NCBI RefSeq assembly: GCF_000017305.1
Contig: NC_009664.2
Coordinates: forward strand, 2,460,001 to 2,492,000
Direction of reading: 5' to 3'
Source: Kineococcus radiotolerans SRS30216 = ATCC BAA-149
GTDB taxonomy: Bacteria > Actinomycetota > Actinomycetes > Actinomycetales > Kineococcaceae
DNA length: 32,000 nucleotides
Position numbers and translations under genes: made by a program. Below are positions 9,212 through 25,329 of the stretch, piece after piece (position 1 is the first letter of the stretch; the number at the start of each line of letters is the position of its first letter). The notes under the pieces were generated by a model. It was not told where the DNA came from and searched no databases. It saw only the letters and a program-made list of their open reading frames with translations.

Positions 9212-12200
9212 GCGAGAGCCTCTCGGCCGCAACTCTCGGAGCTCTCCTCAGCAGCGTCGAGGACGTGGAGTTGCCCTTGCTGACGTGGGGCTACGTCGAG
9301 GGCGCCCTGGACACCTCCGAGGTGCTACGTGCCCTCGAAGTCGGACTTTCTGAGGCCGGCGACGGCGATATGGACGACATCGACGCCGACGAGGTCCTGC
9401 AGCTGCTGGAGGAGCGCGGTCTGCTGGTGCAGGTCAGCCCAGATCGCTGGCGTTCCCGGCTGGCTGAGACGCTGCGATTGACCGCCCACCTGCGGCAACT
9501 GCTCGGCGAGGGCAATGGCCAGTGGTGGTTGCGCGGCCGCTCGTTGGTGTCTGACTTCCGGTTGAACGTGCAGCCGCGACGTTATCCCCGCCGAGATCTG
9601 CCCGGCTCGAACGCTCAGCAGGCCCTGGAGGCCGTGCAGCCACTCACTGATGCCGCGCAGGTAGCGGTCTCGGCCTTTGTGCGACCAGAGCAGCGACTAG
9701 CCCGCTTCCAACTCGATGCATCTACCGCCATCCGCAGTGCCCTGCTCAGCAGTCGCACGGAAGCCGTCATCGTAGCCGCCGGCACCGGCAGTGGTAAGAC
9801 CCTCGCGTTTTACCTGCCAGCCTTCGCGTGGATGAGTGAACGTCTCACAGCGGGGGAGGGCGTGCAGACGCTTGCAATCTATCCGCGAACCGAACTGCTG
9901 AAGGATCAGGTCGGCGAGGCACTGGCCAGTGCGCTGGTCATCAGTGAGCAACTGGCCCAGCATGGGCACCGCCCACTGCGTATCGCCACCCTCTACGGCG
10001 ACACCCCATGGGCAGCATCCTCGCTGGAGTCCGCCAGTTGGCACCAGGAGGCGTGGCCTCACGTGGGCGATGGGCGACGCTGCCCTTATGCGGTATGTCC
10101 ACACTGCCAGTCAGACCTCGTGTGGCTGGACAGCGATCGCTCAGCGACGCCGCCCCGGGAACGACTCGTTTGCCGCGGGTGCGCGAGGACTATTCCTGGT
10201 GATGTGTTGGCGCTGACACGACAATCCATGATCGCCCAGGCGCCAGATGTGCTCTTCACCACCACCGAAATGCTCAACCGCGCCTCCTCCCACCCCAGCC
10301 TGGGGCGCCTGCTCGGCTTCCGCCCCGGCACTGCACGTCCGCGCCTGCTCCTGCTCGATGAGGTTCACACCTACGAGGGGGTCCACGGTGCGCAGGTCGC
10401 ACTCCTTTTGCGCAGGTGGCGCCACGCGATCGGCCAAGCGGTCACCGTGGTCGGCTTGAGCGCCACACTGCGCGACGCGGACACGTTCATGGCGCGACTC
10501 GTCGGCATTTCTGAGGCCGACGTCACCTTGATCGAACCGGCAGAAGTTGACTTGGTCGACGAAGGCAGGCAATACCAGCTGGTCATCCGAGGTGACGCCA
10601 CCTCAGGAGCGAGTCTGCTCTCAACGACCATCCAGACCTCCATGCTTCTCGGCCGTGTCTTGGACCCACCTCATACCGCAAACACCATTCACGGCAGCAA
10701 AGGCTTCCTCTTTACTGACGACCTCGATGTCACCAACCGCCTCTTTCACGACCTGAGGGACGCAGAAGGGGAGGGATGGATGTCCAAGCGCCGCAGTGGC
10801 GCGCAGAAGGTGCTGGCCAACCTCCGCTCGCCCCGCCTGCCCGCGTGTAGCTCACGAGACGTCGACGGGCAGGTCTGGACGCTGCCGGAACGCATCGGGC
10901 ACGCACTGCCCGGAATGTTCCCCGCCCGCGGCCTCAAGATCAGTAAAACGTCATCGCAGGATCCAGGAGTCGCCGCCGGCGCCGACCTCGTCGTGGCCAC
11001 AGCGTCGCTCGACGTGGGCTTTAACGACCCGCGGGTGGGGTTGGTCCTACAGCACAAGTCCCCCCGTGACGCCGCGCAGTTCCTCCAGCGACGTGGGCGT
11101 GCCGGACGTACCCGCGACGTCCGCCCCCTGACTGCGGTCGTGCTCAGCGACTTCGGACGTGACCGCTTGACGTATCAGGCCTATGACCAGCTCTTCGACC
11201 CCGAATTGCTGCCCCGGGCACTGCCTGTCGGCAACCGCTACGTCTTGCGGATGCAAGCAACTCTTGCCCTCAAGGACTGGCTGACACGGCAGGTGCAGTG
11301 GCGTGAGGACGCGGGGCGGGTCCTGACCAAGAACGACCGACGCGAGGAGCAAGACCTCCGCGACCGTGTGGCGGAGCTTCTCAACAGTGTCCTCACCGAC
11401 ACGGTCACTCAGGACGCCTTGGCCGAGTACCTGCGCCGCGCCCTGCGCATCGACGCCGACGAGGTGCAGAACCTGCTGTGGGATCCACCCCGAGCCTTGA
11501 TGACTGCGGTGGTGCCCACGCTGCTGCGGCGCCTGCGTACCCTGTGGCGGCCCGTCGGGGAGGACCCAGGCGGTGAGGCGAAGACCTTCGCTGTCGAGTT
11601 CGTGCCACCGGCCTTGTTCGCGGAGTTGAACCTGCCCGAAGTGCAACTGTTGTTGCCCGACAGCTACCGCGGCACCGTGGAGACACGCATGCCGATCCTC
11701 CAAGCGCTTCGCGAAGCGGCACCAGGTCGCATCAGCAAGCGGTTCGCCGTACGTTCCAGCGCCCAGACCACCTGGGTGCCCATCCCCACCGACGCTAGTG
11801 ATGTGCAGTTGCCACTGGGCGACTTCGTCAAGTCCGGCAGCGTGGAAGGGACGTGGCGAGACGACACCAGCGGTGATCAGCGCCGGGTGGTCCGCCCCTA
11901 CCTCATTCAACTGGAGCAGCCACCGCGGACCCTGGCGGAGTCCTCCAACAGTCGCCCCCTGTGGTGCAGCCAGATCGTCGCCGGCGATGGTGAAATCACG
12001 ACCACCCCAGTACCTCAACCATGGTCTGCGCACATCCGTGCGCTCAGCATCCACACGCACGCGAACCGCCGCCCTCTAGAGGTGCGCCGCTTCACCCCAG
12101 GCACCCGCGCCCGCCTGCGCTCATCCGGCGCCCGCACCGCGGACCCCGCGCCGAACAGCACCAGCATCACCTACATCGACCGTCACGGTGACCCCGCCGC

Positions 12201-13677
12201 ACTGGGCTTCGCCCTTGACGTAGACGGACTCCGTGTGAGCGTAAGACTGCCCTCGCCGCAGGCACTGCTTGCCTCACCTCACCTGCGCACCCCAGCGTGG
12301 CGCTCCGCACGCGTGCGCCACCTCATCGCCGCCGACACCTCGCTGGACTCCTTAGCTGATGAGTTCACCCGCCCCTGGCTGGCCCTCACCCTCGAAGTGG
12401 CGCTCCTGACTCGAGCAGTGGATGAGGACATCAGCATCGCCACCGCCTTAGACCGCGTCAGCGAGGCGGACCTCCTCGCCGCCGCCGGCCAGGTGGCAGG
12501 CGCCGAGGCGCCAACAACTGACGCCAAAGCAGACGGAGCCCACGACGAACCGAACAGTGACGCGTCGGAAATCCGCGACCTTCACGGCCGCTTGCGAGCG
12601 GCCCTGACATCCACCACGGTGCGTGACGCGCTGCTGCAACATGCGCAGGCCCTCCATGCCGACCCTGGACCAGCGGACGCGCGTTTCGCACAGCAGGTCT
12701 TCGCCCGCACCCTGGGTGCCGCCCTGCAACGGACGTGTCTACTGATCGTAAGCAACGCCCAAGACAATGACCTCGTGCTTGACGTTGTCGACGACGAGGA
12801 AGAATCAACAATCTGGCTGACGGAAGCCACGGTCGGTGGCGCAGGCATCATCGAAGCGATAACCGCCGAGTACGCCCGCAACCCCCGACGCTTTTGGCGC
12901 CTCACCCTCAACGCCCTAGAAGCGGGGGAGTACGAGACGCTTGATCACGAGTTGAGCCGCCTCGTCGCCGACCTCAGCGGGGACCCCGACGGCGCACTCG
13001 CCCTCGCCGTCCGGGCAGTCCGCACCGCTACCTCGGCGCACGACACCCGAGCACACCTGGACCGGCTACATCAAGCCCTCACCATCGCCGGCTATGCCAC
13101 CACCCACCCCGTGCTGGCCGCTATCGCCATCCGCCTGCTACGACCGGGCACGACGCCACGCTTCGATGACGCCCTGCACCGTCTCGCGCAAGGGTGGAGC
13201 CGGGTCAGCCAGCAGTTGGGCATGGACATCGACGCGCGGGCGTGGTCCCTCATCGCCGGCCGGGCACTGCCCGACATCACCGACGTGTTTTCCACACCAG
13301 ACCATATCTACGCCAGCCTCTGGCCGCGCGGAAGTGAGGTCTTCCACCGTGACCTGGCCATCTATGCCCCCTATGTCGATCGCGTCCTGCCACTGAACCG
13401 CCATCTCACCGCCGCACTGTTCAGCGAGACGGTGGCCGAGGTGTCCGTCACGGAGGCGGACTGGCGGCAACGCGTGCAAGATGCCGTGGTAGAGCAAGGC
13501 CTGGTCGACCTGACCGCGCCCGTGGATAAGGTCGCAGTGTTGAAGGCGGCACTGCTGCACCTCAGCGTCGACCCGTTGGACAGCGGCTACATGCTCCTAC
13601 ACCCCGTCCTGCACGCCCTGCGCCGCAGTGGTGGCCACTTCACCGCGCGACTGGAACTGAGGGAGGCCGAGCAGTGA
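9196..13677 (+). CDS. dpdJ: Very large DExH-box (superfamily 2) helicase; DpdJ-like
   Basis: Motif I AAGTGSGKTLAF, motif II LLLLDEVHTYEG, motif III SATL, motif VI QRRGRAGR. A four-Cys zinc-ribbon-like insert lies between motifs I and II (CPYAVCPHC...CRGC, nt 10081-10182). About 800 aa of C-terminal extension. The start is GTG 9196 or in-frame GTG 9208, which gives a GTGA overlap with the dpdI stop. Confidence 0.8.
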   Translation: MERLVSESLSAATLGALLSSVEDVELPLLTWGYVEGALDTSEVLRALEVGLSEAGDGDMDDIDADEVLQLLEERGLLVQVSPDRWRSRLAETLRLTAHLRQLLGEGNGQWWLRGRSLVSDFRLNVQPRRYPRRDLPGSNAQQALEAVQPLTDAAQVAVSAFVRPEQRLARFQLDASTAIRSALLSSRTEAVIVAAGTGSGKTLAFYLPAFAWMSERLTAGEGVQTLAIYPRTELLKDQVGEALASALVISEQLAQHGHRPLRIATLYGDTPWAASSLESASWHQEAWPHVGDGRRCPYAVCPHCQSDLVWLDSDRSATPPRERLVCRGCARTIPGDVLALTRQSMIAQAPDVLFTTTEMLNRASSHPSLGRLLGFRPGTARPRLLLLDEVHTYEGVHGAQVALLLRRWRHAIGQAVTVVGLSATLRDADTFMARLVGISEADVTLIEPAEVDLVDEGRQYQLVIRGDATSGASLLSTTIQTSMLLGRVLDPPHTANTIHGSKGFLFTDDLDVTNRLFHDLRDAEGEGWMSKRRSGAQKVLANLRSPRLPACSSRDVDGQVWTLPERIGHALPGMFPARGLKISKTSSQDPGVAAGADLVVATASLDVGFNDPRVGLVLQHKSPRDAAQFLQRRGRAGRTRDVRPLTAVVLSDFGRDRLTYQAYDQLFDPELLPRALPVGNRYVLRMQATLALKDWLTRQVQWREDAGRVLTKNDRREEQDLRDRVAELLNSVLTDTVTQDALAEYLRRALRIDADEVQNLLWDPPRALMTAVVPTLLRRLRTLWRPVGEDPGGEAKTFAVEFVPPALFAELNLPEVQLLLPDSYRGTVETRMPILQALREAAPGRISKRFAVRSSAQTTWVPIPTDASDVQLPLGDFVKSGSVEGTWRDDTSGDQRRVVRPYLIQLEQPPRTLAESSNSRPLWCSQIVAGDGEITTTPVPQPWSAHIRALSIHTHANRRPLEVRRFTPGTRARLRSSGARTADPAPNSTSITYIDRHGDPAALGFALDVDGLRVSVRLPSPQALLASPHLRTPAWRSARVRHLIAADTSLDSLADEFTRPWLALTLEVALLTRAVDEDISIATALDRVSEADLLAAAGQVAGAEAPTTDAKADGAHDEPNSDASEIRDLHGRLRAALTSTTVRDALLQHAQALHADPGPADARFAQQVFARTLGAALQRTCLLIVSNAQDNDLVLDVVDDEEESTIWLTEATVGGAGIIEAITAEYARNPRRFWRLTLNALEAGEYETLDHELSRLVADLSGDPDGALALAVRAVRTATSAHDTRAHLDRLHQALTIAGYATTHPVLAAIAIRLLRPGTTPRFDDALHRLAQGWSRVSQQLGMDIDARAWSLIAGRALPDITDVFSTPDHIYASLWPRGSEVFHRDLAIYAPYVDRVLPLNRHLTAALFSETVAEVSVTEADWRQRVQDAVVEQGLVDLTAPVDKVAVLKAALLHLSVDPLDSGYMLLHPVLHALRRSGGHFTARLELREAEQ

Positions 13678-14192
13678 GGGCACGCACGATCCGGCGCGGG
13701 CACAACCGCACCACCGATGATCTACGCGCGCTGATGCAATCCCTCTTCGTCGCAGAACTTCTGCAACCCAGCGACGAACTGTGGCTGATCAGCCCATGGA
13801 TCAGTGACATTGCTGTCATCGACAACGCTGACCTCGGCTTCAGCGGCCTCCAGCCTGACTGGGGTGCGCGCGACATCCTGCTGAGTGAAATCCTCGGCGC
13901 CCTCACGGTGCGGGGATGCGCGGTCTACGTCGAGTTGCGTCCCGATGACCACAACACCCGTTTCGTGAAGCGTCTGCGCGCTGCCGCCCCCTCCGGCGCT
14001 TCCTTGAACCTGCGCACTTCCGAAGTCCTGCACGAGAAAGGACTTCTTGCCGACAGTTTCATCCTGAGCGGCTCGATGAACGTCACTTATAGTGGCGTGC
14101 AGTTGCTCGACGAGCTCGTGAGACTGGACACGTCAGCGTCAGCCATCGCCGAGGCGCGCCTCGCATTCCGTGCCCGCTGGGGGATCGCCTGA
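13674..14192 (+). CDS. dpdK: Phospholipase D-family (single HKD) nuclease; DpdK-like
   Basis: Canonical motif H-x-K-x4-D-x6-G-S-x-N: LHEKGLLADSFILSGSMN (nt 14031-14081). At 172 aa with one HKD copy it should act as a dimer, as Nuc/BfiI-type nucleases do. GTGA overlap with the dpdJ stop. Confidence 0.85.
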   Translation: MRARTIRRGHNRTTDDLRALMQSLFVAELLQPSDELWLISPWISDIAVIDNADLGFSGLQPDWGARDILLSEILGALTVRGCAVYVELRPDDHNTRFVKRLRAAAPSGASLNLRTSEVLHEKGLLADSFILSGSMNVTYSGVQLLDELVRLDTSASAIAEARLAFRARWGIA

Positions 14193-16363
14193 TGGACACC
14201 GCCCAATTCATGACAACGTGGTTCGGCCCCGGCAACGACTTCACGCTCCCTAGCTCGTGGGAGACCGACCCGCGCTACACGCGAATGCGGCCCTTCCTGC
14301 TGGACCTCGACGCGATCCCGAATCAACCTCTATTTCTGCCCCGACTGCAAGCCGCCGGGCGCCTCATGTACGCCACGGCTTTCAACGCGGCTCAAGCGCG
14401 GCAACTTCAGGAGGCACTCACCGCATTCGTGGGCCCCAGCTATAGCAATTTTGACCCGGTCCCGACGCGACTCAACGCCCACGACCCCCTGGAAAGCGCC
14501 CTGCAGCGACTCGGGACGCACACCACCTGGCGACTCACGGTGCCGACAGCAGCCTGGGAGGCGGCATGGCAAGCCGCCGCACTGCTGCGCGCGACGTGGC
14601 TTCGGCGACCCTGGCGCGAAGCAGACACCCCCACCCCGGTAGGGCGACTTCTGCGCGACTTCCGCCTGTCCCTCGCCGCCGGTGACGAGGCTCTCTCTGC
14701 ACGCTACCTTCAGCGGCTCATCGACTCGGGGTCACTGGACACGGCCAACATCACCTACCTCAAGATTCGCCGACTCAATGCTCTCGGGGCGCGTGAGCGC
14801 ACTCTGGACCTACCCGAGTTCGATGACGTTTTGCGGATGCGGCTACCTCGCGGGGTGCGCCAGGTCCTGCTGGCAGCAGTCCATGAGCGGTATCTGGGCG
14901 ACGCAGAAGCCCACCAGGACACCGCCTGGGCCCGCCAAGCGCTGCAGCGACACCCGCACTTAAGCGCCCTACAGAGCGGGGGAGACGTCACCGGGCCGCG
15001 GGAAGCACTCAGTACGCTGCTGGTCCTCAACCGCCTCTACCCCAACCAAGCGCAGGCTCCCAACGAAGAGCTTTGGCGGGATGACCCGTGGCTGCGCGCC
15101 CTCGCCGAAGACATACCGCCTGCTGCGACCAGTCCCGCCCCGGCAACCGCACCGGCAGTCGAACCGGATGTTCCGGCATTGCTGAACGCTGCCCGCTACG
15201 CCGAGGCGTGGGACAAGATCCAGGTCTTGCCGCGTGGACCTGAGCGGGACCGCCTCGCGGTGATGTGTGCACTCAACTTGGATGATGCGCAGTGCAGTCT
15301 CGGGCTCGCTGCGGAATTCACTCAGCAAGGTGAGGACTATCTCACGAGCATCGCAGTGCCTGGCTGGCTTCAAGAGTCGTGGCAGCGACATCTGCGCCAG
15401 GTGGCCGGCCTCAATGGTCAACCGCAGGCTTGGGCGGACCTGCTGCGCCTGGCGGCCGCCGGTTCCATGACAGCCGGGATGCTCACGGCCTTGGAGGAGG
15501 TCATCGACGGTTGGCCCAGTCCGGGCGCCGACGACGACACCATTGCCGCGATCCTGGAAGCGAACTCGCTGTCTGGACCTGGGCTGACTCAGACCCTGGA
15601 CGTAATCCCCCTGCTCTTGCAGAGCGTGGAAGCCGGTGAGGCGCCACGGACCAGTGGCGGTGTATTGCAGTTGCTCATATTCTCGGAGGAGTACACCGCC
15701 GCCACGCTGTCAGCGTTGGCCGTGGCCTTGCAGCGCTTTCTCGCTGCATCTCCGGAGGGTGCCACCTACGGTGACACCCTCGGCATGCTCAGCGAGACCA
15801 GCGCACGCTGGGTGCAGGTGCGCACGGCAGACACCGTTCTGGACCTCATTGACGTCATCCTCGCCGGTCCAAACATCGCACCTAGTGCACGCGTGGCCAC
15901 ATGTGGGGAGTTGTTGACGCGACTGCGGTCCTTCGCCGTGCGCCTCAGCCCAGCCCAACTCGTCCTTGCTTCAGCACTCAGCGATGAGGTTGACTGCGCC
16001 CTCAGTTGGCCACTGCCTCAGGCAGACGTAGCAAACGTTGCCGACGCGTCGGCGCAGATCACAGCGACCGTCCTGTTGTACAGCCTGCAGGAGCACGTAC
16101 TGCAACGTGCAGAACAGGCCCTGTCTTTCCTCTTTCCGCGTGTGACCGTGCACACCAGCAGTCACCTGGCCGGCACGAGCCAACTGCGGGACCAAGCCAG
16201 GGCTTGCGACGTGCTGGTCGTTGCTACAACGCGCGCTAGCCACGCGGCGACGGACTTCCTGCAGCGGCACAAGACCGGATCGATCGTCTATCCCAGTGGC
16301 GCCGGGTCAGGATCGATGCTGCGCGCTGCCACTGAGGCACTGCTGAGGCTGTCCGAGGAGTGA
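14192..16363 (+). CDS. 723-aa protein of unknown function, last gene of the restriction operon (a DpdD equivalent or an extra component)
   Basis: The ATG overlaps the dpdK stop (TGATG). High GC3 throughout. Ala/Leu-rich and helical-repeat-like over most of its length. The C-terminal ~100 aa (ITATVLLYSLQEH...ACDVLVVATTRASHAATDFLQ...GSIVYPSGAGSGSM) resembles a small Rossmann/DUF2325-like module, judged from memory. Confidence 0.6.
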   Translation: MDTAQFMTTWFGPGNDFTLPSSWETDPRYTRMRPFLLDLDAIPNQPLFLPRLQAAGRLMYATAFNAAQARQLQEALTAFVGPSYSNFDPVPTRLNAHDPLESALQRLGTHTTWRLTVPTAAWEAAWQAAALLRATWLRRPWREADTPTPVGRLLRDFRLSLAAGDEALSARYLQRLIDSGSLDTANITYLKIRRLNALGARERTLDLPEFDDVLRMRLPRGVRQVLLAAVHERYLGDAEAHQDTAWARQALQRHPHLSALQSGGDVTGPREALSTLLVLNRLYPNQAQAPNEELWRDDPWLRALAEDIPPAATSPAPATAPAVEPDVPALLNAARYAEAWDKIQVLPRGPERDRLAVMCALNLDDAQCSLGLAAEFTQQGEDYLTSIAVPGWLQESWQRHLRQVAGLNGQPQAWADLLRLAAAGSMTAGMLTALEEVIDGWPSPGADDDTIAAILEANSLSGPGLTQTLDVIPLLLQSVEAGEAPRTSGGVLQLLIFSEEYTAATLSALAVALQRFLAASPEGATYGDTLGMLSETSARWVQVRTADTVLDLIDVILAGPNIAPSARVATCGELLTRLRSFAVRLSPAQLVLASALSDEVDCALSWPLPQADVANVADASAQITATVLLYSLQEHVLQRAEQALSFLFPRVTVHTSSHLAGTSQLRDQARACDVLVVATTRASHAATDFLQRHKTGSIVYPSGAGSGSMLRAATEALLRLSEE

Positions 16364-17958: not shown

Positions 17959-18543
17959 CTACCCCTGTCGCCCGACGGCGCTGGGCTCACCGCCAGACGA
18001 GACGGTCGGTCCGACATGGCCGCGACGTCGTCGCAGCAAGGCCAGCACGAGTACGGCCGCCGCGGTCATCCACGCCTTGCCCACAAGTTGGCCAGGCAGG
18101 AACGCCAGAGAGTTGAAAGCGAGCCAGAGGAAGATCAGAGAGTCCACTATAAAGCCAGCGATGTTGCTGAGGACGACTGCGGTCAGCCAGCGCCGCTTGC
18201 GCAGTGGGGTGTAGACGGCGAAGTCAGCTAGTTCGCTGAGGAGGAAGGCGGCGGCGCTGGCTAGGGCGAACTGCGGGGAGATCAGCGCTGAGAGCAGGGT
18301 GCCGATGACGATGGCGGCTAGCACCGCGCGCTTGCCGAGGTGGTCCTGGGTCAGGTCGCGCAGCGTGAAGGCCAGGCCGGCGAAGTACACCCCTGCTGGT
18401 GCGACCAGGCCGAAGCCGACGGGCACGGCGCCGAAGGTGGTGATGGCGTAGTTGGCGAGCAGCACGGTCGCCACGTAGCACGCCGCCAGCACCAGGCCCA
18501 CCCGCCGACTCGTGCGCGGCGCGGCCAGATCAGAGGTGCTCAT
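17959..18543 (-). CDS. VUT-family (YhhQ/DUF165-like) queuosine-precursor transporter
   Basis: Polytopic membrane protein with the family pattern [11 protein letters not shown]...[36 protein letters not shown] 18543 is preferred because GAGGAG lies 6-11 nt upstream on the minus strand. It overlaps the queD 3' end by 14 nt. Confidence 0.75.
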
Positions 18544-18901
18544 CGGTTTCTCCTCGGTAGGTGGCACCAGAGGTGCAGGTCTCGCGGACGGTCACGGCAC
18601 TGAGCAGGGCCAAGGTGGGGGAGAGTTGCTGCCACATCCAGCGCGCGAGGACTTCGCTGGTGGGGTTGTCCAGCCCTTCGACCTCGTTGAGGTAGTAGTG
18701 GTCCAGACGCTCGATGACCGGGGCGACGAGCTTCTTCAGGTCGCCAAAGTCCATCACCCAGCCCAGGAGTGGGTCGGGTAGGCCGTTCACGTGCACGCTG
18801 ACTCGGTAGGAGTGCCCGTGCAGGCGCGCGCACTTGTGCCCTGCGGGAACGTGCGGCAGGCGGTGCGCGGCTTCGAAGGTGAATTCGCGGAAGATCTCCA
18901 T
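18530..18901 (-). CDS. queD: 6-carboxy-5,6,7,8-tetrahydropterin synthase
   Basis: [34 protein letters not shown]... carries the QueD/PTPS His/Cys motif set. ATG at 18901 overlaps the queE stop (TGATG). The ORF-track start at 18946 would lie inside queE. Confidence 0.9.
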
Positions 18902-19620
18902 CAGGCGATCCCGAGGTACTTGTGGGTCTGCATCGATAGGCTCCACTGCGGATGGGTCAGGCAGTAGTCGATCGCGGCGCGGGTGTGGGCTTGCACGTCG
19001 GGTCCATCCATCGGCTGCAGGCGGAAGGAGGTGAAGTCCAGTTCGGCGAACTGCGCTGGATCTCCGCCGGCTTGCGGGTAGACGAGCTTCAGTTCGTCTC
19101 CCCTGCTCACCACCAGGTCTGCACCAATCTTGGGGCTAACGCAGAGCCAGTCGATGCCTGGTGGGGGAGTGCGGGTGCCGTTGGTCTCCACCGCCACCTC
19201 GAAGCCGCGCTGGTGCAGTGCCTGCACCGCCGCGTCGTCGAGTTGCAGCAACGGCTCCCCGCCGGTGCATACCACGAACTTGCGCTGGGCGCCGTGAGGG
19301 GCGTGGGAGTGTGCGCTGGAGTCGGACTCTGCAGTGATGGCGGAGCCATCGGTGAAGTCATCGGTGAGGCCAGCTGCTGGCCAACTCGCGTCCACGGCGG
19401 CGGCGAGGTCGTCGGCGGTAGCGAAGCGTCCTCCACCGACGCCGTCGGTACCGACGAAGTCGGTGTCGCAGAAGGTGCAGATCGCGCGGGCGCGATCTTT
19501 CTCTCGACCGGTCCACAGGTTGCAGCGCGAGAAGCGGCAGAAGACGGCGGGGCGGCCGGCGTGGGTGCCTTCACCTTGCAGCGTGTAGAAAATCTCCTTG
19601 AGCAGGTAGGTCACCGTCAC
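18901..19620 (-). CDS. queE: 7-carboxy-7-deazaguanine synthase (radical SAM)
   Basis: [49 protein letters not shown]. The cluster motif is C-x14-C-x2-C (nt 19468-19524), the variant known from Burkholderia QueE. GTG 19620 overlaps the queC stop as GTGA. The upstream extension to 19704 lies inside queC. Confidence 0.9.
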
Positions 19621-20306
19621 GCTCCGCGGTAGGGCAGGGGGTCGGTGCTGCCTGCCTCGGCGAAGCCGTTCAAGCGCAGGAGGCAGGAGTCGCAGTGCCC
19701 GCACGGGTGTCCGGCCGCGTCCGGGTCGTAGCAGGAGGAGGTCATGCCGTAGTCCACGCCCAGGGCCAAGCCCGCTCGCACGATGTCGGCCTTGGTCATC
19801 TGCATCAGGGGGGCGTGGATGGTCAGTTCGGTGCCCTGCACGCCAGCGCGGGTGGCCAGGCGTCCCATGGCTTGGAAGGCGTCGACGTACTCGGGGCGGC
19901 AGTCCGGGTAGCCGCTGTAGTCCAGGGCGTTGACGCCGATGAAGATGTCGCCGGCGCCGACGACCTCGGCGTAGGCCAAGGCGTAGGACAAGAAGATCGT
20001 GTTGCGGGCCGGCACGTAGGTGATCGGGATGTCGGCCTGCAGGTCCTCGACCGTGTCGTGCTTGGGCACCGCGATGTCCGCGGTGAGGGCTGAGCCGCCG
20101 AAGACGGTGAGGTCGATGGTGGCGATGACGTGCCCGGCCGCGCCCAGGGCCGTGGCGACGCGGCGGGCAGCGTCCAACTCCACGGCGTGGCGCTGGCCAT
20201 AGGCGAAGCTCAGGGCGTAGGGGGTGAAGCCTTGGGACTTAGCGATGGCGAGGACGGTGGTGGAGTCCAGGCCTCCGCTGAGCAAGACGACGGCGGGTCG
20301 GTCCAT
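19617..20306 (-). CDS. queC: 7-cyano-7-deazaguanine (preQ0) synthase
   Basis: PP-loop [23 protein letters not shown], and the C-terminal zinc motif CYDP...[19 protein letters not shown] lies upstream of the ATG. Confidence 0.95.
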
Positions 20307-20464: not shown

Positions 20465-21583
20465 GTGCGTAAACTGACCGTGGTGGTGACCTGCAGCGAC
20501 CGCAAGTCGCAACCGGTCGCTCCTGACCTCCGCCTGCGCGACGTCCCCGAGGAGCACCCCGAGTCCCGTGCCCACGCCTGGGACGGGCGACTGCGCCGGG
20601 CCGCGCAGCACCACCCGGGCTCGCAGCGACCCCTGGCCACGCTCTACCAAGGTGATCACTGGGCGCAGGCGCAAACCCTGCCCGCTGCCGCCGCCCGCGT
20701 CGGCTTCCACGCCGACCTCTGGGTCGCCTCCGCCGGGCTGGGACTGCAGCCCATCACCGCACAGGCACCCGCCTACGCGGCCACCTTCGCCGCTCGCCAC
20801 CTCGACCGCGTCGCCGCCGACGCGTGCGGGCGGCAGCAGTGGTGGGCGGCTCTGCAAGCCCGCCGTGGCGCCAGCACCCTGGCCGACTTGGCCCGCGCCG
20901 GCTCACTGCTGATGATCTTCTCCGAGGACTACGGCCACGCCGTGCAGGAAGAACTGCACGCAGTCGCCCACGTCGGCGCTGACGCCCTGCTCATCGGCGG
21001 CGCCAGCGACATCGACGGTCTGCCACGCCTGGCCGCCGATCGACGCCTGCGGTCCCACCTGGGGGGCACCTTAACCAGCCTGAACGTGCGCACGGCGCTG
21101 GCGTGGCTGCAGCGACTGAGCCCCAGCACCACCACCAGCTCTGGCTCCGCCTTGGCCACCACGGCCGGACCCCTCGTTGGTGGGCCCACGTTGACCTCGA
21201 CCGCTGCCTGGCGGCGTTGGCGGCGCTGGAGCACCGCGCACGCGCACGAAGAGGTCTACGACCGACGTCCCTTGAGCGACGAGCAGGTACGCGCCTACAT
21301 CGGCACCCGGCACGCGCTCATGGCCCGCCCCAGCCGCACCACACTGCTACGAGCCCTCCGTGAGGACGGCTACGCCTGCGAGCAGTCCCGCTTCGGCCAC
21401 CTCTACACCCAGGTCCTGCAGCACCTGGCTGAGCAAGACGCTCACCACGACGCTGAGCAGGACGTCGGCTTGGACATCGCCGAGGCCAGTGGACACAGCA
21501 AGCGAGGCATCGTGCAGAGCACGCAGCGAGCACGGCACGGCCCCAGTCCAGGGCGCGATCAGGTAGCAGGGGGAGCAGCATGA
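20465..21583 (+). CDS. 372-aa protein of unknown function, first gene of the modification operon
   Basis: GTG lies 6 nt after AAGGAGG. ATGA overlap with the next gene. The N-terminal pattern VVVTCSDRKS...LYQGDHW...LWVASAGLGL...PAYAATF recalls the DUF6884-type pattern (CSxxK...LYxG...SAxxGL...Y), a weak recollection. Ser/Thr/Ala linker, then a C-terminal HTH-like segment (RPSRTTLLRALREDGYA). Confidence 0.6.
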   Translation: MRKLTVVVTCSDRKSQPVAPDLRLRDVPEEHPESRAHAWDGRLRRAAQHHPGSQRPLATLYQGDHWAQAQTLPAAAARVGFHADLWVASAGLGLQPITAQAPAYAATFAARHLDRVAADACGRQQWWAALQARRGASTLADLARAGSLLMIFSEDYGHAVQEELHAVAHVGADALLIGGASDIDGLPRLAADRRLRSHLGGTLTSLNVRTALAWLQRLSPSTTTSSGSALATTAGPLVGGPTLTSTAAWRRWRRWSTAHAHEEVYDRRPLSDEQVRAYIGTRHALMARPSRTTLLRALREDGYACEQSRFGHLYTQVLQHLAEQDAHHDAEQDVGLDIAEASGHSKRGIVQSTQRARHGPSPGRDQVAGGAA

Positions 21584-22713
21584 GCGAAGGCATCATCCGA
21601 CGACGGGCACTGCGCATCCTGCAACGCGAGGACGTGCCGCTGTACCTGTTCGCGCTCGCCGCCTCCGACGTCGCCCGCATCGCCGACGTCGCGCGCATCT
21701 CGCGCGACGACTTCGGCAAGCTCATCGGCTACCAGCGCCCGGAGAAGAAGCAGCACGTCAACCAGATCGTCGACTACCTCGACACCGACGGCGCGCTCTT
21801 CCCCAACGGCCTGATCCTGGCTCTGCCCACCAGCGTGCATTTCCGCTCCAGCCGCGGCCCCGGCGCCAGCGACGGCCTCGCCACCGCCGGGGAGTTGGAG
21901 ATCCCCTGCCCTGAAGAAGACGGCGCACCACGCCCGGCGTGGATCGTCGATGGCCAACAGCGCAGCCTGGCGCTCGCCCGCACCCGCAACACCTCCTTCC
22001 CCGTACCGGTCGCCGGCTTCGTCACCGAGAACCTCGACATGCAGCGTGAGCAGTTCCTGCGGGTGAATACCGTGCAGCCCCTGCCGACCAACCTAGTCAC
22101 CGAACTGCTGCCGGAGGTTCCGACCACCATCTCCCCGCGCATGTCCGCGCGCCGGCTGCCCTCGGCCTTGGTGGACATGCTCAACCAAGACCCCGAGTCT
22201 CCCTTCCGCGGCTTGATCCGCCGCGCCTCCACCGACGTGGACAAGAAGTCCGGCGCGGTCATCACCGACAACAGCCTGGTGCTTGCCATCGGTGAGTCCC
22301 TCAACTCCCCCCTCGGGGTGCTCTTCCCCTACCGCAACCTCGCCGACGGCACCACCGACACCGCAGGCATCCGCCAGTTGCTCATCACCTACTGGACCGC
22401 GGTACGCCGCCTCTTCCCCGATGCATGGGGCAAGCCACCCACGGAAAGTCGACTTATGCATGGCCTCGGCATCCGCGCCATGGGCCGACTGATGGACCGC
22501 ATCATGGTCAGCATCGACGCTGCTGCCCCCAGCGCAATTGACGACGTCATGACGGAGTTGTGGCGGGTGGCTCCGGTGTGTCGGTGGACGCACGGCACGT
22601 GGGAGGGACTGCGAGTGGACTGGAACGGACTGCAGAACAACCCTAAGGACATCAGCACCCTGTCCAACTACCTCGTGCGCGCGTATCTGCAGGCAAGGAC
22701 GAGCACCTCATGA
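21580..22713 (+). CDS. dpdB: DGQHR-domain (DndB/DpdB-like) protein, paralogue 1
   Basis: WIVDGQQRSLAL (DGQQRS at nt 21949-21966), GYQRPE, QFLRVNTVQPLPTNLVTELLP, C-terminal LQNNPKD..LSNYL. ATGA overlaps on both sides. Confidence 0.75.
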   Translation: MSEGIIRRRALRILQREDVPLYLFALAASDVARIADVARISRDDFGKLIGYQRPEKKQHVNQIVDYLDTDGALFPNGLILALPTSVHFRSSRGPGASDGLATAGELEIPCPEEDGAPRPAWIVDGQQRSLALARTRNTSFPVPVAGFVTENLDMQREQFLRVNTVQPLPTNLVTELLPEVPTTISPRMSARRLPSALVDMLNQDPESPFRGLIRRASTDVDKKSGAVITDNSLVLAIGESLNSPLGVLFPYRNLADGTTDTAGIRQLLITYWTAVRRLFPDAWGKPPTESRLMHGLGIRAMGRLMDRIMVSIDAAAPSAIDDVMTELWRVAPVCRWTHGTWEGLRVDWNGLQNNPKDISTLSNYLVRAYLQARTSTS

Positions 22714-24218
22714 AGTTCTACTTCCCCGACAGTCAAGACCTGATCAGCCCCACCTACGACTTTGACCGGGATGAGTACCACCCGTTGCGAGTGCGTCAGC
22801 GCGACGATCGCTACGCACACGAAGCACTTACCGCCCGCCCTTACGACGGCATCCTCGTCAGCAAGGGCATCGTCGACGGTTCCATCAGCGGAACCGGCAA
22901 GTACACCACCTCTCAACGCGCACGCCTGTACCGCCTGGGCGTGCGCGACTTCTTCCGACTCCCTGACGGGATCGAGACTCTTGGTGACAACGGCGCCTTC
23001 GCCTACGCCACCGAGGAAATCCCGCCCGTCACCGTGGAGCAGGTCCTCGACTTCTACGACGGCTGCGGCTTCGACGCCGGCGTCAGCCTGGACCACATCG
23101 TCTTCGGATACCAACCCGACGAAGTCGTGCAGGCGGCCGGCGGCATCTTAAACGACGAGCAGAACGCTTGGGAAACCAGACGCGAGCTCACCCTGAAATA
23201 CGCAGCGGAGTTCCTAGAAGCAATCCACGAACGCGGATCCACCCTGGTACCCGTCGGGGCAGCACAAGGGTGGAGTCCAAGCACCTACGCCAACAGCGTG
23301 CAACGTCTCCAAGATTTGGGCTACCAGCGCATCGCCCTCGGCGGCATGGTCCCGTTGAGAACGCCCGCTATCCTCGCGTGCCTCAACGCCATCGACGCCG
23401 TCCGCAAACCCGACACCCAACTGCATCTGCTGGGCATCACCCGTCTCGACGCCATGGAAGAGTTCGCCCGACTAGGCGTGTCTAGCCTGGACAGCACTTC
23501 CGGCTTCCGGCAGGCGTTCATGGACGAAAAAAATAACTACCACACCGCCAACGGCAATTACGCCGCTATCCGCGTGCCCCAGGTCGATGGAAACCTCAAA
23601 CTCAAGAAGGCCATCGTGGCTGGTCAGGTCTCCCAAGCCAGTGCCGTTCGTTTGGAACGCGAATGCTTGAGTGCCCTGCGTGCCTACGACGAGGGCGCCG
23701 CCAGTCTCGAAGAGGCTTTGGAGACCGTCTTGGCCTACGACGCGTTAGTGCGTCCGCCGGCCGACCGCGCGAAACAATCGTATGAGGAGATGTACCGCAC
23801 CACCCTCCAGGACCGCCCCTGGACGACGTGCTCATGCGGATTGTGCGAGCGACACGGCATTCAGTTGGTCATCTTTCGAGGCACCGAACGCAACAAGCGG
23901 CGCGGTTTTCACAACCTCGCTGTCCTGGCCGCCAAGATGCACACCCTGCGCCCCGCCAGAGTCAAGCCGACTGCGTCGCGGACCAGGGCAAAGGCGCAGA
24001 CAACATCAGGCGCGCCGATGCGCACGACGCAGGGGCGGACCACTGCGGCCACGGGGGGATTGGCGGCGGCCGACTCGACCGTAACGAAGGCCACGGCGAG
24101 GACCGCGAAGGTCACCGCGAAGAAGTCCACCGCAGTGGAAGTTCCTGCAAGGAAGACTGTCACCAAGAAGACGGCGGCGAAGACAACGACGAAGCGCACA
24201 AGGGGAACTGATGGCTGA
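22710..24218 (+). CDS. dpdA: DNA-guanine transglycosylase DpdA (TGT superfamily) with a ~90-aa basic C-terminal tail
   Basis: The N-terminus MKFYFPDSQDLISPTYDF is characteristic of DpdA. TIM-barrel core GDNGAFAY...ALGGMVPL...LHLLGI. Zinc motif CSCGLCERH (C-x-C-x2-C). Tail aa ~414-502 is rich in K/R/T/A (..AKVTAKKSTAVEVPARKTVTKKTAAKTTTKRTRG). Confidence 0.9.
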   Translation: MKFYFPDSQDLISPTYDFDRDEYHPLRVRQRDDRYAHEALTARPYDGILVSKGIVDGSISGTGKYTTSQRARLYRLGVRDFFRLPDGIETLGDNGAFAYATEEIPPVTVEQVLDFYDGCGFDAGVSLDHIVFGYQPDEVVQAAGGILNDEQNAWETRRELTLKYAAEFLEAIHERGSTLVPVGAAQGWSPSTYANSVQRLQDLGYQRIALGGMVPLRTPAILACLNAIDAVRKPDTQLHLLGITRLDAMEEFARLGVSSLDSTSGFRQAFMDEKNNYHTANGNYAAIRVPQVDGNLKLKKAIVAGQVSQASAVRLERECLSALRAYDEGAASLEEALETVLAYDALVRPPADRAKQSYEEMYRTTLQDRPWTTCSCGLCERHGIQLVIFRGTERNKRRGFHNLAVLAAKMHTLRPARVKPTASRTRAKAQTTSGAPMRTTQGRTTAATGGLAAADSTVTKATARTAKVTAKKSTAVEVPARKTVTKKTAAKTTTKRTRGTDG

Positions 24219-25329
24219 CCGGTACGAACTGCGACTGCCCGCCCTGCAGATCCGCCAGGGCGAGCGCTTCATCTACTGCTTTGCCGTCGACGGCAAAGTG
24301 CTGCCGTCGTTCACCGCCGTCTCGCGCGTGCACCGTAGCAACGCCGCACTGCACGGCTATCAACGCCCAGAAGTGCTTAGTCACATCAAGGCCATTCGTC
24401 GCTACCTCGAGTCCTCAGACGCGATGCTGCCCAACGCCATCGTCTTGGCCTTCAACGAGAGCGTGCGCTTCCAGCCGAGCAGGCGCAAAAACATTGTGGA
24501 CTACTCCACCATGGGCGAGTTGATCATCCCCATCGACGAAACGATCGATGAGGCGGACAAGGCCGCGTGGCTCGTTGACGGGCAACAGCGTAGTGCAGCA
24601 ATCCGCGACGCCAACGTCGATGAGTTCCCCGTCGCTGCAGTCGGCTTCATTACTCACGGTGAGGAGGAGCAGCGTTCACAGTTTATACTCGTCAACAACG
24701 CCAAGCCCCTACCCAAGGGACTGATCCACGAATTGCTGCCCGACACCGTTGGGCACCTGCCAGCGAAATACGCCAAACGTCAACTTCCGGCGTTGCTGAT
24801 GTCGCGCCTGAACAACGAAGACTTGTTCAGCTACAACGACGACGACAGTCCTTTTCAGGGTCGCATCGCCACCCCCACCGCCCCAGACGGCTACATCAAA
24901 GACAACAGCGTCTTGAAGATGATCGAAAGCAGCCTCAACGAGGGGGCCCTCTACCAGTACCGCAACCCCAGCGACCACTCCGGCGACGCCGACGCCATGC
25001 TGCTTCACCTGAAAATCTTCTGGAGCCTGGTCCGCGCGACCTTCCCCGAGGCCTGGAGCATGCCGCCGCGCAAGTCGCGCCTTACCCACGGCGTCGGCAT
25101 CCAAGCCATGGGCTTCGTCATGGACGCCCTGACCGAGAACACCCCCGCCGCCAAACTTCCTGACCTAGATCTGCACGAGCCGTTGCAGCGACTACGCGAG
25201 GCGTGCGCTTGGACCTCGGGCACATGGCAGTTCGGCAAGAGTGATCAGCGACACTGGAACAGCCTCCAAAATACCCCCAATGATGTGCGGTTGTTGACCA
25301 ACTACCTCCTGCGCGTCATCCGATCTTGA
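24211..25329 (+). CDS. dpdB: DGQHR-domain (DndB/DpdB-like) protein, paralogue 2
   Basis: WLVDGQQRSAAI (nt 24577-24594), GYQRPE, QFILVNNAKPLPKGLIHELLP, LQNTPNDVRLLTNYL. Collinear with paralogue 1 along its whole length. The start overlaps the dpdA stop by 8 nt. Confidence 0.75.
   Translation: MADRYELRLPALQIRQGERFIYCFAVDGKVLPSFTAVSRVHRSNAALHGYQRPEVLSHIKAIRRYLESSDAMLPNAIVLAFNESVRFQPSRRKNIVDYSTMGELIIPIDETIDEADKAAWLVDGQQRSAAIRDANVDEFPVAAVGFITHGEEEQRSQFILVNNAKPLPKGLIHELLPDTVGHLPAKYAKRQLPALLMSRLNNEDLFSYNDDDSPFQGRIATPTAPDGYIKDNSVLKMIESSLNEGALYQYRNPSDHSGDADAMLLHLKIFWSLVRATFPEAWSMPPRKSRLTHGVGIQAMGFVMDALTENTPAAKLPDLDLHEPLQRLREACAWTSGTWQFGKSDQRHWNSLQNTPNDVRLLTNYLLRVIRS

What the first reader, a model, noticed from the sequence alone, without database searches (positions are those of the whole stretch)
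21580..25329. Two diverged DGQHR (DpdB-like) paralogues bracket dpdA
The 377-aa and 372-aa proteins are collinear over their whole length. Shared blocks are GYQRPE, PN-I-LA, GEL-IP, AW-VDGQQRS, FPV--GF-T, QF--VN---PLP--L--ELLP, SPF-G-I, DNS-L--IESL, FP-AW--PP-SRL-HG-GI-AMG and LQN-P-D---L-NYL. They are clearly diverged, roughly one third identical by eye, so this is an old duplication rather than an assembly artefact. As I recall the model Dpd system, it has a single DpdB ATPase partner for DpdA. Here DpdA is translationally coupled to one paralogue on each side. They could form a heteromeric loader, recognise different sequence contexts, or one could have taken over another role.
Basis: partly seen in the sequence, partly recalled or inferred. 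Interest (0 to 1): 0.7.

Follow-up and report, generated by a model that had tools for sequence, protein, structure and literature searches.

The report
Dpd system with two DpdB paralogues
In this Kineococcus radiotolerans DNA-modification island the enzyme that writes 7-deazaguanine into DNA (DpdA) is flanked by two old, both well-conserved copies of its ATPase partner DpdB. This two-copy layout is a widespread, uncharacterised variant of a system whose studied model has only one copy.

Summary
ORFs 21580-22713 (B1, 377 aa) and 24211-25329 (B2, 372 aa) are collinear paralogues: 39% identity, E 2e-80. They bracket dpdA with 4-bp and 8-bp overlaps.

- **Family:** both pass the NCBIfam DpdB equivalog cut-off and both hit the same PADLOC DpdB model.
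- **Context:** the window is the complete K. radiotolerans Dpd island: dpdE-K, dpdD, yhhQ-like, queD/E/C, then dpdC-B1-dpdA-B2.
- **Spread:** dpdC-B-dpdA-B occurs in 80 of 80 actinobacterial species loci, three alphaproteobacterial plasmids and 37 of 61 non-redundant metagenome loci. It is not an actinobacterial oddity.
- **Orthology:** upstream copies form one clade (89% bootstrap). The single DpdB of canonical C-A-B systems (Enterobacter, E. coli) always groups with B2. So B2 is the orthologue of the studied DpdB, and B1 is a distinct, unnamed subfamily.
- **Constraint:** B1 keeps GYQRPE, DGQQR and the other core motifs. It is the most constrained gene of the module (dN/dS 0.06) and is more basic than B2.

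How B1 works is inferred, not shown. My preferred reading is a second, non-redundant subunit of the ATP-driven DpdA loader, probably a B1:B2 hetero-oligomer. Published work only counts extra dpdB copies in passing. I file it as a new variant of a known system, of moderate interest.

The parts
20465..21583 (+). dpdC (divergent DUF6884-type; converts preQ0-DNA to ADG-DNA in the model system)
   Evidence: PADLOC DpdC PDLC02817, 421.9 bits, E 3e-127. BLASTP to the gene upstream of dpdA in Enterobacter gives E 1e-10. A homologue sits at this position in 80/80 actinobacterial loci. No Pfam or NCBIfam hit.
21580..22713 (+). B1: upstream DpdB paralogue, a member of a distinct 'upstream-copy' subfamily
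   Evidence: NCBIfam DpdB 407.8 bits. PADLOC DpdB 489 bits. The clade is monophyletic in 268/300 bootstraps. All 124 upstream copies score closer to B1 than to B2. dN/dS 0.06. DGQQR at residues 124-128.
22710..24218 (+). dpdA, DNA-guanine transglycosylase, with a C-terminal Lys/Thr/Ala-rich tail from about residue 413 to 502
   Evidence: NCBIfam DpdA NF041059, 588 bits, over residues 1-412. PADLOC DpdA 617.7 bits. The tail is read directly from the translation.
24211..25329 (+). B2: downstream DpdB, orthologue of the characterised single DpdB ATPase
   Evidence: NCBIfam DpdB 519.7 bits. 100% identical to the K. radiotolerans protein annotated DpdB (P0121). All 28 single-type and all 120 downstream copies score closer to B2. 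44.9% identity to Enterobacter DpdB. DGQQR at residues 123-127.
19617..20306 (-). queC (preQ0 synthesis), divergent from dpdC
   Evidence: TIGR00364, 206.6 bits.
18901..19704 (-). queE
   Evidence: TIGR04508, 336.4 bits.
18530..18946 (-). queD
   Evidence: TIGR03367, 108.6 bits.
17959..18567 (-). YhhQ/Vut_1-like queuosine-precursor transporter (sub-threshold match)
   Evidence: PF02592, 40.9 bits. TIGR00697, 38.5 bits, below its cut-off.
14192..16363 (+). dpdD
   Evidence: NF041061, 552.8 bits.
13674..14192 (+). dpdK (PLD-like)
   Evidence: NF041068, 200.2 bits.
9196..13677 (+). dpdJ
   Evidence: NF041067, 1654.3 bits.
8516..9211 (+). 231-aa ORF in the dpdI position (assigned by position only)
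   Evidence: No hit in NCBIfam, Pfam or PADLOC.
5269..8523 (+). dpdH
   Evidence: NF041065, 920.9 bits.
4577..5461 (+). dpdG
   Evidence: NF041064, 109.5 bits.
2052..4580 (+). dpdF
   Evidence: NF041063, 717.2 bits.
26..2059 (+). dpdE, C-terminal part (cut by the window edge)
   Evidence: NF041062, 458.7 bits, model positions 397-1048.

Best explanation
**What it is (well supported, about 0.9).** This is the modification module of a complete Dpd 7-deazaguanine restriction-modification island, in a conserved four-gene form: dpdC-B1-dpdA-B2. B2 is the orthologue of the characterised DpdB, a ParB/SspE-like ATPase whose ATP hydrolysis is needed for DpdA to exchange guanine for preQ0 in DNA. B1 is an ancient paralogue that has been co-inherited with dpdA and B2. 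It keeps all core NTPase motifs and is under the strongest purifying selection of the module.

**How it works (inferred, about 0.4).** B1 is a second, non-redundant subunit of the ATP-driven DpdA loader. Canonical DpdB is a homodimer whose N-terminal ParB-like domains form an ATP-regulated interface and whose C-terminal domains surround DNA. I propose that B1 and B2 assemble into a hetero-oligomeric, asymmetric clamp. The more basic B1 would contribute DNA contact. B2 would keep the canonical coupling to DpdA. DpdC then hydrolyses preQ0-DNA to ADG-DNA.

**History (about 0.6).** The one-DpdB systems of Salmonella, E. coli and Enterobacter are most parsimoniously derived forms that lost B1.
For: - **Family membership:** both copies exceed the NCBIfam DpdB equivalog cut-off and hit the same PADLOC DpdB model.
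- **Conserved architecture:** C-B-A-B is seen in 80/80 actinobacterial species loci, 3 alphaproteobacterial plasmids and 37 of 61 non-redundant metagenome loci. The upstream copy is never seen without the downstream copy where the flank is adequate.
- **Orthology by position:** 124/124 upstream copies are closer to B1. All 120 downstream, 28 single-type and 3 orphan copies are closer to B2. The upstream clade has 89-90% NJ bootstrap. Group identities are up-up 0.57, down(dual)-single 0.48 and up-down 0.36.
- **Functionality of both copies:** 54 alignment columns are at least 90% identical in all three groups, including GYQRPE, DGQQR, QF..VN, PLP, ELLP, SRL.HG.G and QN. dN/dS is 0.06 for B1, 0.11 for B2, 0.115 for DpdA and 0.24 for DpdC.
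- **Co-inheritance:** pairwise distances of B1, B2 and DpdA correlate at r 0.90-0.97.
- **Coupling:** B1-to-dpdA overlap occurs in 109/114 loci and dpdC-to-B1 overlap in 101/107.
- **Physical link of DpdA to the B2 type:** five DpdA-DpdB fusion proteins all carry a B2-type domain.
- **Charge asymmetry:** B1-type net charge is +1/+4 (N- and C-terminal halves) against -4/0 for B2-type.
- **Model-system facts:** DpdB is a homodimeric ATPase with a DGQQR motif and is required for DpdA activity (PMC10164549).
- **Derived single form:** single-type DpdB nests inside the downstream clade. Single-type DpdA lineages occupy several positions among dual ones.
Against: - No interaction between B1 and B2 was tested.
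- B2 in two-copy systems keeps every column that is conserved in single-copy DpdB. Only one column shows a complementation pattern. This fits B2 still working as a canonical homodimer, with B1 acting separately.
- The apparently repeated loss of B1 shows that B2 alone can suffice.
- In Salmonella no stable DpdA-DpdB complex was seen by SEC, so gene adjacency need not mean a stable complex.
- Deep branching among the alphaproteobacterial downstream copies, one rogue sequence and the rest is unresolved. The trees are NJ only, so the 'ancestral two-copy' reading is not secure.
Confidence: 0.45

Rival explanations
1. B1 works separately from B2, as its own homodimer in a different step of modification. 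It could load or position DpdC on preQ0-DNA, or direct DpdA to a second set of sequence contexts. B2 homodimers would carry out the canonical DpdA-supporting reaction.
For: - B2 is indistinguishable from single-copy DpdB at conserved columns, and there is no subfunctionalisation signature.
- B1 has its own 19 clade-specific conserved columns and a different charge.
- B1 sits between dpdC and dpdA and overlaps both.
- One-DpdB systems are functional without B1.
Against: - In the model system DpdC acts independently of DpdA and DpdB in vitro, so DpdC has no known need for an ATPase.
- No locus shows B1 travelling with DpdC alone or with DpdA alone.
- The orphan DpdB plus DUF6884 pair in Variovorax carries a B2-type copy, not a B1-type copy.
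Confidence: 0.3
2. B1 is a DndB-like regulator. It would be a DNA-binding protein that tunes expression or the extent of modification rather than taking part in catalysis.
For: - DpdB belongs to the DndB/ParB superfamily, and DndB is reported to be a regulatory DNA-binding protein of the dnd cluster (PMC5699537).
- B1 is the more basic paralogue.
- B1 can be lost without loss of the system.
Against: - B1 retains the full set of NTPase motifs and is under very strong constraint (dN/dS 0.06).
- It fails the DndB models. TIGR03233 gives no hit, and TIGR04172 gives 42.7 bits against a cut-off of 450.
- It is translationally coupled inside the operon it would regulate.
Confidence: 0.12
3. B1 is a redundant or decaying duplicate, or the pair is an assembly or annotation artefact.
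For: Both copies receive the same database name.
Against: - The paralogues are 30-44% identical in all 114 loci.
- B1 has the lowest dN/dS of the module.
- The motifs are intact.
- The architecture is fixed in 80/80 species.
- Independent assemblies give the same gene calls.
Confidence: 0.02

Closest known systems
Salmonella enterica serovar Montevideo DpdA/DpdB/DpdC modification machinery (Gedara et al. 2023, PMC10164549)
   Same: The same three families (DpdA, DpdB, DpdC) sit next to a dpdD-K restriction set and preQ0 synthesis genes. B2 is the orthologue of its DpdB and carries the DGQQR motif. Published reviews state that K. radiotolerans DNA carries dPreQ0 and dADG.
   Different: The model has one DpdB (C-A-B order), which is a homodimer. 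Here a second, distinct DpdB-family gene lies between dpdC and dpdA. The DpdC here is too divergent for Pfam DUF6884. The DpdA here has a basic C-terminal tail.
SspE (phosphorothioate-sensing NTPase/nickase of the SspABCD-SspE system)
   Same: According to PMC10164549, SspE shares with DpdB an N-terminal DGQQR-motif NTPase domain and a C-terminal helical domain. SspE chains appear among the weak fold matches of the B1 model.
   Different: SspE is about twice as long and has an EHxxP nicking motif, which the paper reports as absent from DpdB. The fold matches here are not significant (E 0.4-0.5).
ParB / KorB CTPase DNA clamps
   Same: These are ParB-like N-domains in which nucleotide binding gates dimerisation around DNA. 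They are the top-ranked fold matches of the B1 model (6sdk, 8qa9).
   Different: The matches are weak (E 0.05-0.1, TM below 0.3). The nucleotide is ATP in DpdB. ParB and KorB are homodimers, and no paralogue pair is known there.
DndB (dnd phosphorothioation cluster)
   Same: Pfam places both copies in PF14072 DndB, at 61.6 and 154.9 bits.
   Different: Neither copy reaches the DndB equivalog TIGR03233. DndB is described as a regulator, not a transglycosylase partner.
GATOR-GC survey of dpd islands (NAR 2025, PMC12235509)
   Same: It reports that dpdB has the most additional copies (n = 801) among 2,335 unique dpd islands. That count is the only mention of extra dpdB copies found in the searchable literature.
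   Different: It is a count only. It gives no positions, no phylogeny, no distinction of two subfamilies and no functional proposal.

Membership tests
DpdB (NCBIfam NF041060 equivalog) | Full-length score above the curated cut-off of 300 bits | tested here: met
   B1 scores 407.8 bits and B2 519.7 bits, both over the whole 352-position model. Both also hit PADLOC DpdB PDLC02811, at 489 and 503 bits.
DpdB (NCBIfam NF041060 equivalog) | DGQQR/DGQHR NTPase motif and the other conserved DGQHR-domain blocks | tested here: met
   VDGQQRS is present in both copies. 54 columns are at least 90% identical across the upstream, downstream and single-type groups. TIGR03187 DGQHR domain scores 237.6 and 239.4 bits.
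DpdB (NCBIfam NF041060 equivalog) | Encoded next to dpdA in a dpd cluster | tested here: met
   Both copies overlap dpdA. The full dpdC-K set is in the window.
DpdB (NCBIfam NF041060 equivalog) | Orthology to the experimentally characterised DpdB (the single copy downstream of dpdA) | tested here: met
   This holds for B2 only. All 28 single-type DpdB score closer to B2 and nest in the downstream clade. B1 does not meet this feature: it belongs to a separate clade with 89% bootstrap.
DpdB (NCBIfam NF041060 equivalog) | DNA-stimulated ATPase activity required for DpdA transglycosylation; homodimer | not testable with these tools
   Known only for Salmonella DpdB (PMC10164549).
ParB-like fold (ParB/SspE/DndB superfamily) | Structural match of the N-terminal domain to solved ParB-fold NTPases | tested here: inconclusive
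   AF2 models have pLDDT 78.8 and 72.3. For B1 the top Foldseek hits are ParB-CDP, KorB and SspE, but E is at least 0.047. B2 gives nothing meaningful. No PDB sequence match was found.
DndB (TIGR03233 equivalog) | Score above 328 bits | tested here: not met
   B1 gives no hit. B2 scores 16.2 bits.
Dpd restriction-modification system | DpdA plus DpdB plus DpdC modification genes, with dpdD-K restriction genes | tested here: met
   DpdA scores 588 bits and DpdC (PADLOC) 421.9 bits. DpdD, F, G, H, J and K are all above their cut-offs. DpdE is partial at the window edge. DpdI is assigned by position only.
Dpd restriction-modification system | dPreQ0 and dADG present in genomic DNA | not testable with these tools
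   Reported for K. radiotolerans by Thiaville et al. 2016, as cited in PMC5699537 and PMC12235509. The primary paper could not be read.

The most novel reading that the evidence does not exclude
The two-DpdB module (dpdC-B1-dpdA-B2) is the ancestral and most diverse form of the Dpd modification machinery. In it, DpdB works as an obligate asymmetric B1:B2 ATP-gated DNA clamp, with one subunit specialised for DNA and the other for DpdA. The Salmonella and E. coli one-DpdB system now used as the model would then be a secondarily simplified derivative. Mechanistic conclusions drawn from it (homodimer, no stable DpdA complex) would not describe most Dpd systems.
Probability: 0.3. Interest if true: 0.6.

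Novelty: new variant of a known kind. Interest (0 to 1): 0.45.

Why it matters
How DpdB's ATP hydrolysis enables DpdA to swap a base inside duplex DNA is an open question for the Dpd system (PMC10164549). A natural, widespread version has two non-equivalent DpdB subunits. One of them is the most conserved gene of the module. This gives an asymmetric handle on that question: the two ATP sites and the two DNA-facing domains can be mutated separately. The host is an organism reported to carry dPreQ0 and dADG in its DNA. There are also practical consequences. Annotation pipelines (PGAP, PADLOC) give both genes the same name and so hide a distinct subfamily. Surveys that treat dpdB as one gene will miscount system types.

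Tried and rejected
1. **Solved relatives by sequence.** Single-sequence and profile searches of PDB found nothing for either copy.
2. **AlphaFold2 monomers.** Models of B1 and B2 built from 64-65-sequence alignments had moderate confidence, and it was lowest exactly at the conserved GYQRPE and VN..PLP..ELLP loops. Foldseek against PDB gave no significant hit. The structure route therefore added only a weak ParB/KorB/SspE ranking for B1.
3. **Linked B1-B2 prediction.** A prediction with a paired alignment was considered and not attempted.
4. **Broad genome scan.** The genome-contig scan with a diverse DpdA alignment returned only the 80 closest loci, all actinobacterial. Distant systems had to come from plasmids and metagenomes.
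5. **Primary paper.** Thiaville et al. 2016 (PNAS) is not held. I could not check whether its figure already draws two dndB-like genes for K. radiotolerans. The GATOR-GC supplements are not held either.
6. **Subfunctionalisation.** A scan for columns kept in single-type and B1 but lost in B2 found only one column, so this idea was rejected.
7. **Decaying duplicate.** Rejected by dN/dS.
8. **Non-coding features.** No Rfam family and no tRNA were found in the window.
9. **Tree methods.** No maximum-likelihood tree software was available. The trees are NJ with Kimura distances.
Full report
**Observation**

The window carries two collinear ORFs on the + strand: 21580-22713 (377 aa, here B1) and 24211-25329 (372 aa, here B2). 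BLASTP gives 39% identity and 54% positives over 373 columns, E 2e-80.

Between them lies a 502-aa ORF (22710-24218). It scores 588 bits on the NCBIfam DpdA equivalog. The junctions are read directly from the sequence:
- ATGA at 21580 (upstream gene/B1);
- ATGA at 22710 (B1/dpdA);
- ATGGCTGA at 24211 (dpdA/B2).

Purine-rich stretches precede the starts at 21580 and 24211. Public gene calls on an independent assembly give the same four ORFs.

**Context**

B2 is 100% identical to a Kineococcus radiotolerans protein on a 4.76-Mb contig, so the window is from that chromosome. It holds a complete Dpd island:
- dpdE (cut by the window edge), dpdF, dpdG, dpdH, a 231-aa ORF in the dpdI position, dpdJ, dpdK and dpdD;
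- on the opposite strand, a YhhQ-like transporter, queD, queE and queC;
- then the operon dpdC-B1-dpdA-B2.

The 372-aa gene upstream of B1 has no Pfam or NCBIfam hit. It is still DpdC. It scores 421.9 bits on PADLOC DpdC PDLC02817. It aligns with the gene upstream of dpdA in Enterobacter at E 1e-10.

Downstream of B2 lies a 346-aa ORF with no homologue in any related locus. A serine recombinase follows it. The island probably ends there.

**Both copies are DpdB by every library**

B1 scores 407.8 bits and B2 519.7 bits on NCBIfam NF041060, whose cut-off is 300. Both hit PADLOC DpdB PDLC02811, at 489 and 503 bits. Neither reaches DndB TIGR03233. No library has a separate model for B1.

**How widespread the layout is**

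Each copy has its own set of orthologues at 64-85% identity in many Actinomycetota. Many contigs carry both.

- **Actinobacterial genomes.** A scan of one genome per species with a DpdA profile returned 80 actinobacterial loci from more than 20 genera. All 80 have dpdC-B1-dpdA-B2 in the same order and strand.
- **Alphaproteobacterial plasmids.** Plasmids of Sinorhizobium, Caulobacter and Bradyrhizobium have the same bracket, followed by queE-queD-queC. PGAP calls both copies DpdB.
- **Metagenomes.** A scan anchored on Enterobacter DpdA gave 80 more loci. After removing near-duplicates these comprise 37 two-copy, 14 one-copy and 10 undecidable loci.
- **All loci together.** Over all 168 loci, 124 are two-copy and 28 one-copy. 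The upstream copy is never seen without the downstream one where the flank is long enough.
- **The model form.** The canonical C-A-B layout is seen on Enterobacter cloacae pPOL9A. It is also in 161 of 5,426 complete E. coli genomes, with one place each.

**Which copy is the 'real' DpdB**

- **Score comparison.** Every one of 124 upstream copies scores higher against B1. Every one of 120 downstream copies, 28 single-type DpdB and 3 orphan DpdB scores higher against B2.
- **Group identities.** Mean identities among representatives are 0.57 within the upstream group, 0.48 between downstream and single-type, and 0.36-0.37 between upstream and either of the others.
- **Trees.** In NJ trees of 144 representatives the upstream clade is monophyletic in 180/200 and 268/300 bootstraps. 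Rooted on two distant DGQHR proteins, the single-type DpdBs nest inside the downstream clade. The deepest order among the alphaproteobacterial downstream copies, one rogue sequence and the rest is unresolved.
- **DpdA tree.** Most single-type loci form one pure clade, but six sit elsewhere among two-copy lineages. The alphaproteobacterial two-copy systems branch deepest under midpoint rooting.

Upstream copies from Actinomycetota, metagenomes and Alphaproteobacteria form one clade. Single-type DpdB falls within the spread of their downstream partners. The simplest history is therefore one old duplication followed by loss of B1 in the one-copy lineages. This rests on NJ trees only, and I give it about 0.6.

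**Are both functional?**

Fifty-four alignment columns are at least 90% identical in the upstream, downstream and single-type groups. They include GYQRPE, PN, DGQQR, QF..VN, PLP, ELLP, SRL.HG.G, MD, W.G.W and QN.

Nei-Gojobori dN/dS over 60 actinobacterial locus pairs is:

| Gene | dN/dS |
|---|---|
| B1 | 0.06 |
| B2 | 0.11 |
| DpdA | 0.115 |
| DpdC | 0.24 |

Pairwise distances of B1, B2 and DpdA correlate at r 0.90-0.97. Within-locus paralogue identity stays at 30-44%. This shows co-inheritance without gene conversion. B1 is therefore not a decaying duplicate.

B1 carries 19 clade-specific conserved columns, and the downstream and single-type copies share 19 that B1 lacks. B1-type proteins are more basic. 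Net charge of the N- and C-terminal halves is +1/+4, against -4/0 for downstream and -4/-4 for single-type.

**Mechanism**

The facts about the model system come from PMC10164549:
- DpdB is a DNA-stimulated ATPase required for DpdA to insert preQ0.
- It is a homodimer with a ParB/SspE-like N-domain bearing DGQQR.
- Its C-terminal domains surround a basic tunnel.
- No stable DpdA-DpdB complex was seen.
- DpdC acts independently.

The points shown here are these:
- B2 is that protein's orthologue.
- B1 is a conserved extra member.
- The B1/dpdA junction overlaps in 109/114 loci and the dpdC/B1 junction in 101/107, while dpdA/B2 is looser.
- Five DpdA-DpdB fusion proteins all carry a B2-type domain. 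Many DpdC-DpdA fusions also exist.

From this I infer that B1 is a second, non-redundant subunit of the ATP-driven loader, most likely in a B1:B2 hetero-oligomer (about 0.4).

The main rival is that B1 acts as a separate homodimer in another step (about 0.3). Two results favour it. B2 shows no loss of single-type conserved columns. One-copy systems also work without B1. A DndB-like regulatory role (about 0.12) fits poorly with the intact NTPase motifs and the very low dN/dS.

**Structure attempts**

AF2 monomer models had pLDDT 78.8 (B1) and 72.3 (B2), with low confidence at the conserved loops. Foldseek found no significant PDB match. B1's top-ranked hits were ParB-CDP, KorB and SspE, at E 0.05-0.5. 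B2's hits were noise. Fold membership therefore rests on sequence families and the literature.

**Novelty**

In the searchable literature the only trace is one sentence in the GATOR-GC paper. It says that dpdB has the most additional copies (801) among 2,335 unique dpd islands, without further analysis. Searches for named paralogues found nothing relevant. The 2016 primary paper could not be read.

Public annotation already labels both genes DpdB. What is new is that these are two distinct, anciently separated subfamilies in a fixed bracket around dpdA. The studied DpdB corresponds to the downstream one. The two-copy form dominates outside the Enterobacteriaceae. I file this as a new variant of a known system, of moderate interest.

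Noticed in passing
window 23947-24215 (DpdA residues ~413-502): K. radiotolerans DpdA has a roughly 90-residue C-terminal tail rich in Lys, Thr, Ala and Arg, beyond the end of the NCBIfam DpdA model. It looks like a basic, disordered DNA-binding tail. In some Streptomyces loci (L018, L021, L027) the match extends to residue 493, so the tail is shared by part of the clade.
   Followed up: partly
window 25411-26451 and 26639-27289: The 346-aa ORF just after B2 has no Pfam, NCBIfam or PADLOC hit and no homologue in any of the 80 related actinobacterial loci. A serine recombinase (Resolvase, 138 bits) follows it. This is probably the edge of the island or a separate mobile insertion.
   Followed up: partly
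window 8516-9211: The 231-aa ORF in the dpdI position, between dpdH and dpdJ with overlapping ends, matches no DpdI or other model in NCBIfam, Pfam or PADLOC.
   Followed up: no
L086 5968-7562 (Variovorax sp. SRS16 plasmid 2); L083 8001-9107 (Nonomuraea plasmid); L084 5989-7134 (Euzebya pacifica plasmid): B2-type 'DpdB' genes occur without any dpdA nearby. In Variovorax the gene overlaps a classical 157-aa DUF6884 gene next to type I-E cas genes. In Nonomuraea it sits beside dnaE. In Euzebya it lies among DNA cytosine methyltransferases and an AAA ATPase. DpdB-type ATPases may serve other partners.
   Followed up: partly
proteins P0247, P0258, P0292, P0301, P0382; P0242, P0251 and others; P0256: Natural fusion proteins exist: DpdA-DpdB (always a B2-type domain at the C-terminus) and many DpdC/DUF6884-DpdA. 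One protein, P0256, joins a B1-type C-terminal part to DpdA. That could be a real fusion or a frameshift in the assembly.
   Followed up: partly
L057 1443-2561 (-), L122 5250-6377 (+), L144 3937-5100 (-), L069 about 11807-12364 (-): A few dpd loci carry a third DGQHR gene a few kilobases from the module. Two are very distant DGQHR proteins and were used as outgroups. The one in L144 is a full DpdB-family member of unstable tree position.
   Followed up: partly
L082 11507-14671, L085 9474-11181, L087 7040-10322: In the alphaproteobacterial plasmid version the bracket is followed in the same operon by queE-queD-queC. In two of the three plasmids (Sinorhizobium, Bradyrhizobium) a hypothetical gene and a HAD-family hydrolase follow, and Sinorhizobium also has a VUT-family transporter. 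The Sinorhizobium locus shows no dpdD-K genes within 8 kb, so it may be a modification-only island.
   Followed up: no
B1 residues 39-53 and 161-187; B2 residues 28-75, 123-140, 159-168: AlphaFold2 confidence is lowest exactly over the most conserved motifs (GYQRPE; VN..PLP..ELLP; in B2 also around DGQQR). This is as expected if these loops become ordered only on nucleotide binding or partner contact.
   Followed up: no
The word-index protein search returned the exact K. radiotolerans protein for B2 but not for B1, whose best hit was 85% (Kineococcus sp. SYSU DK005). Yet the same 377-aa gene is called in public assemblies. This looks like a limit of the candidate filter rather than biology.
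   Followed up: partly
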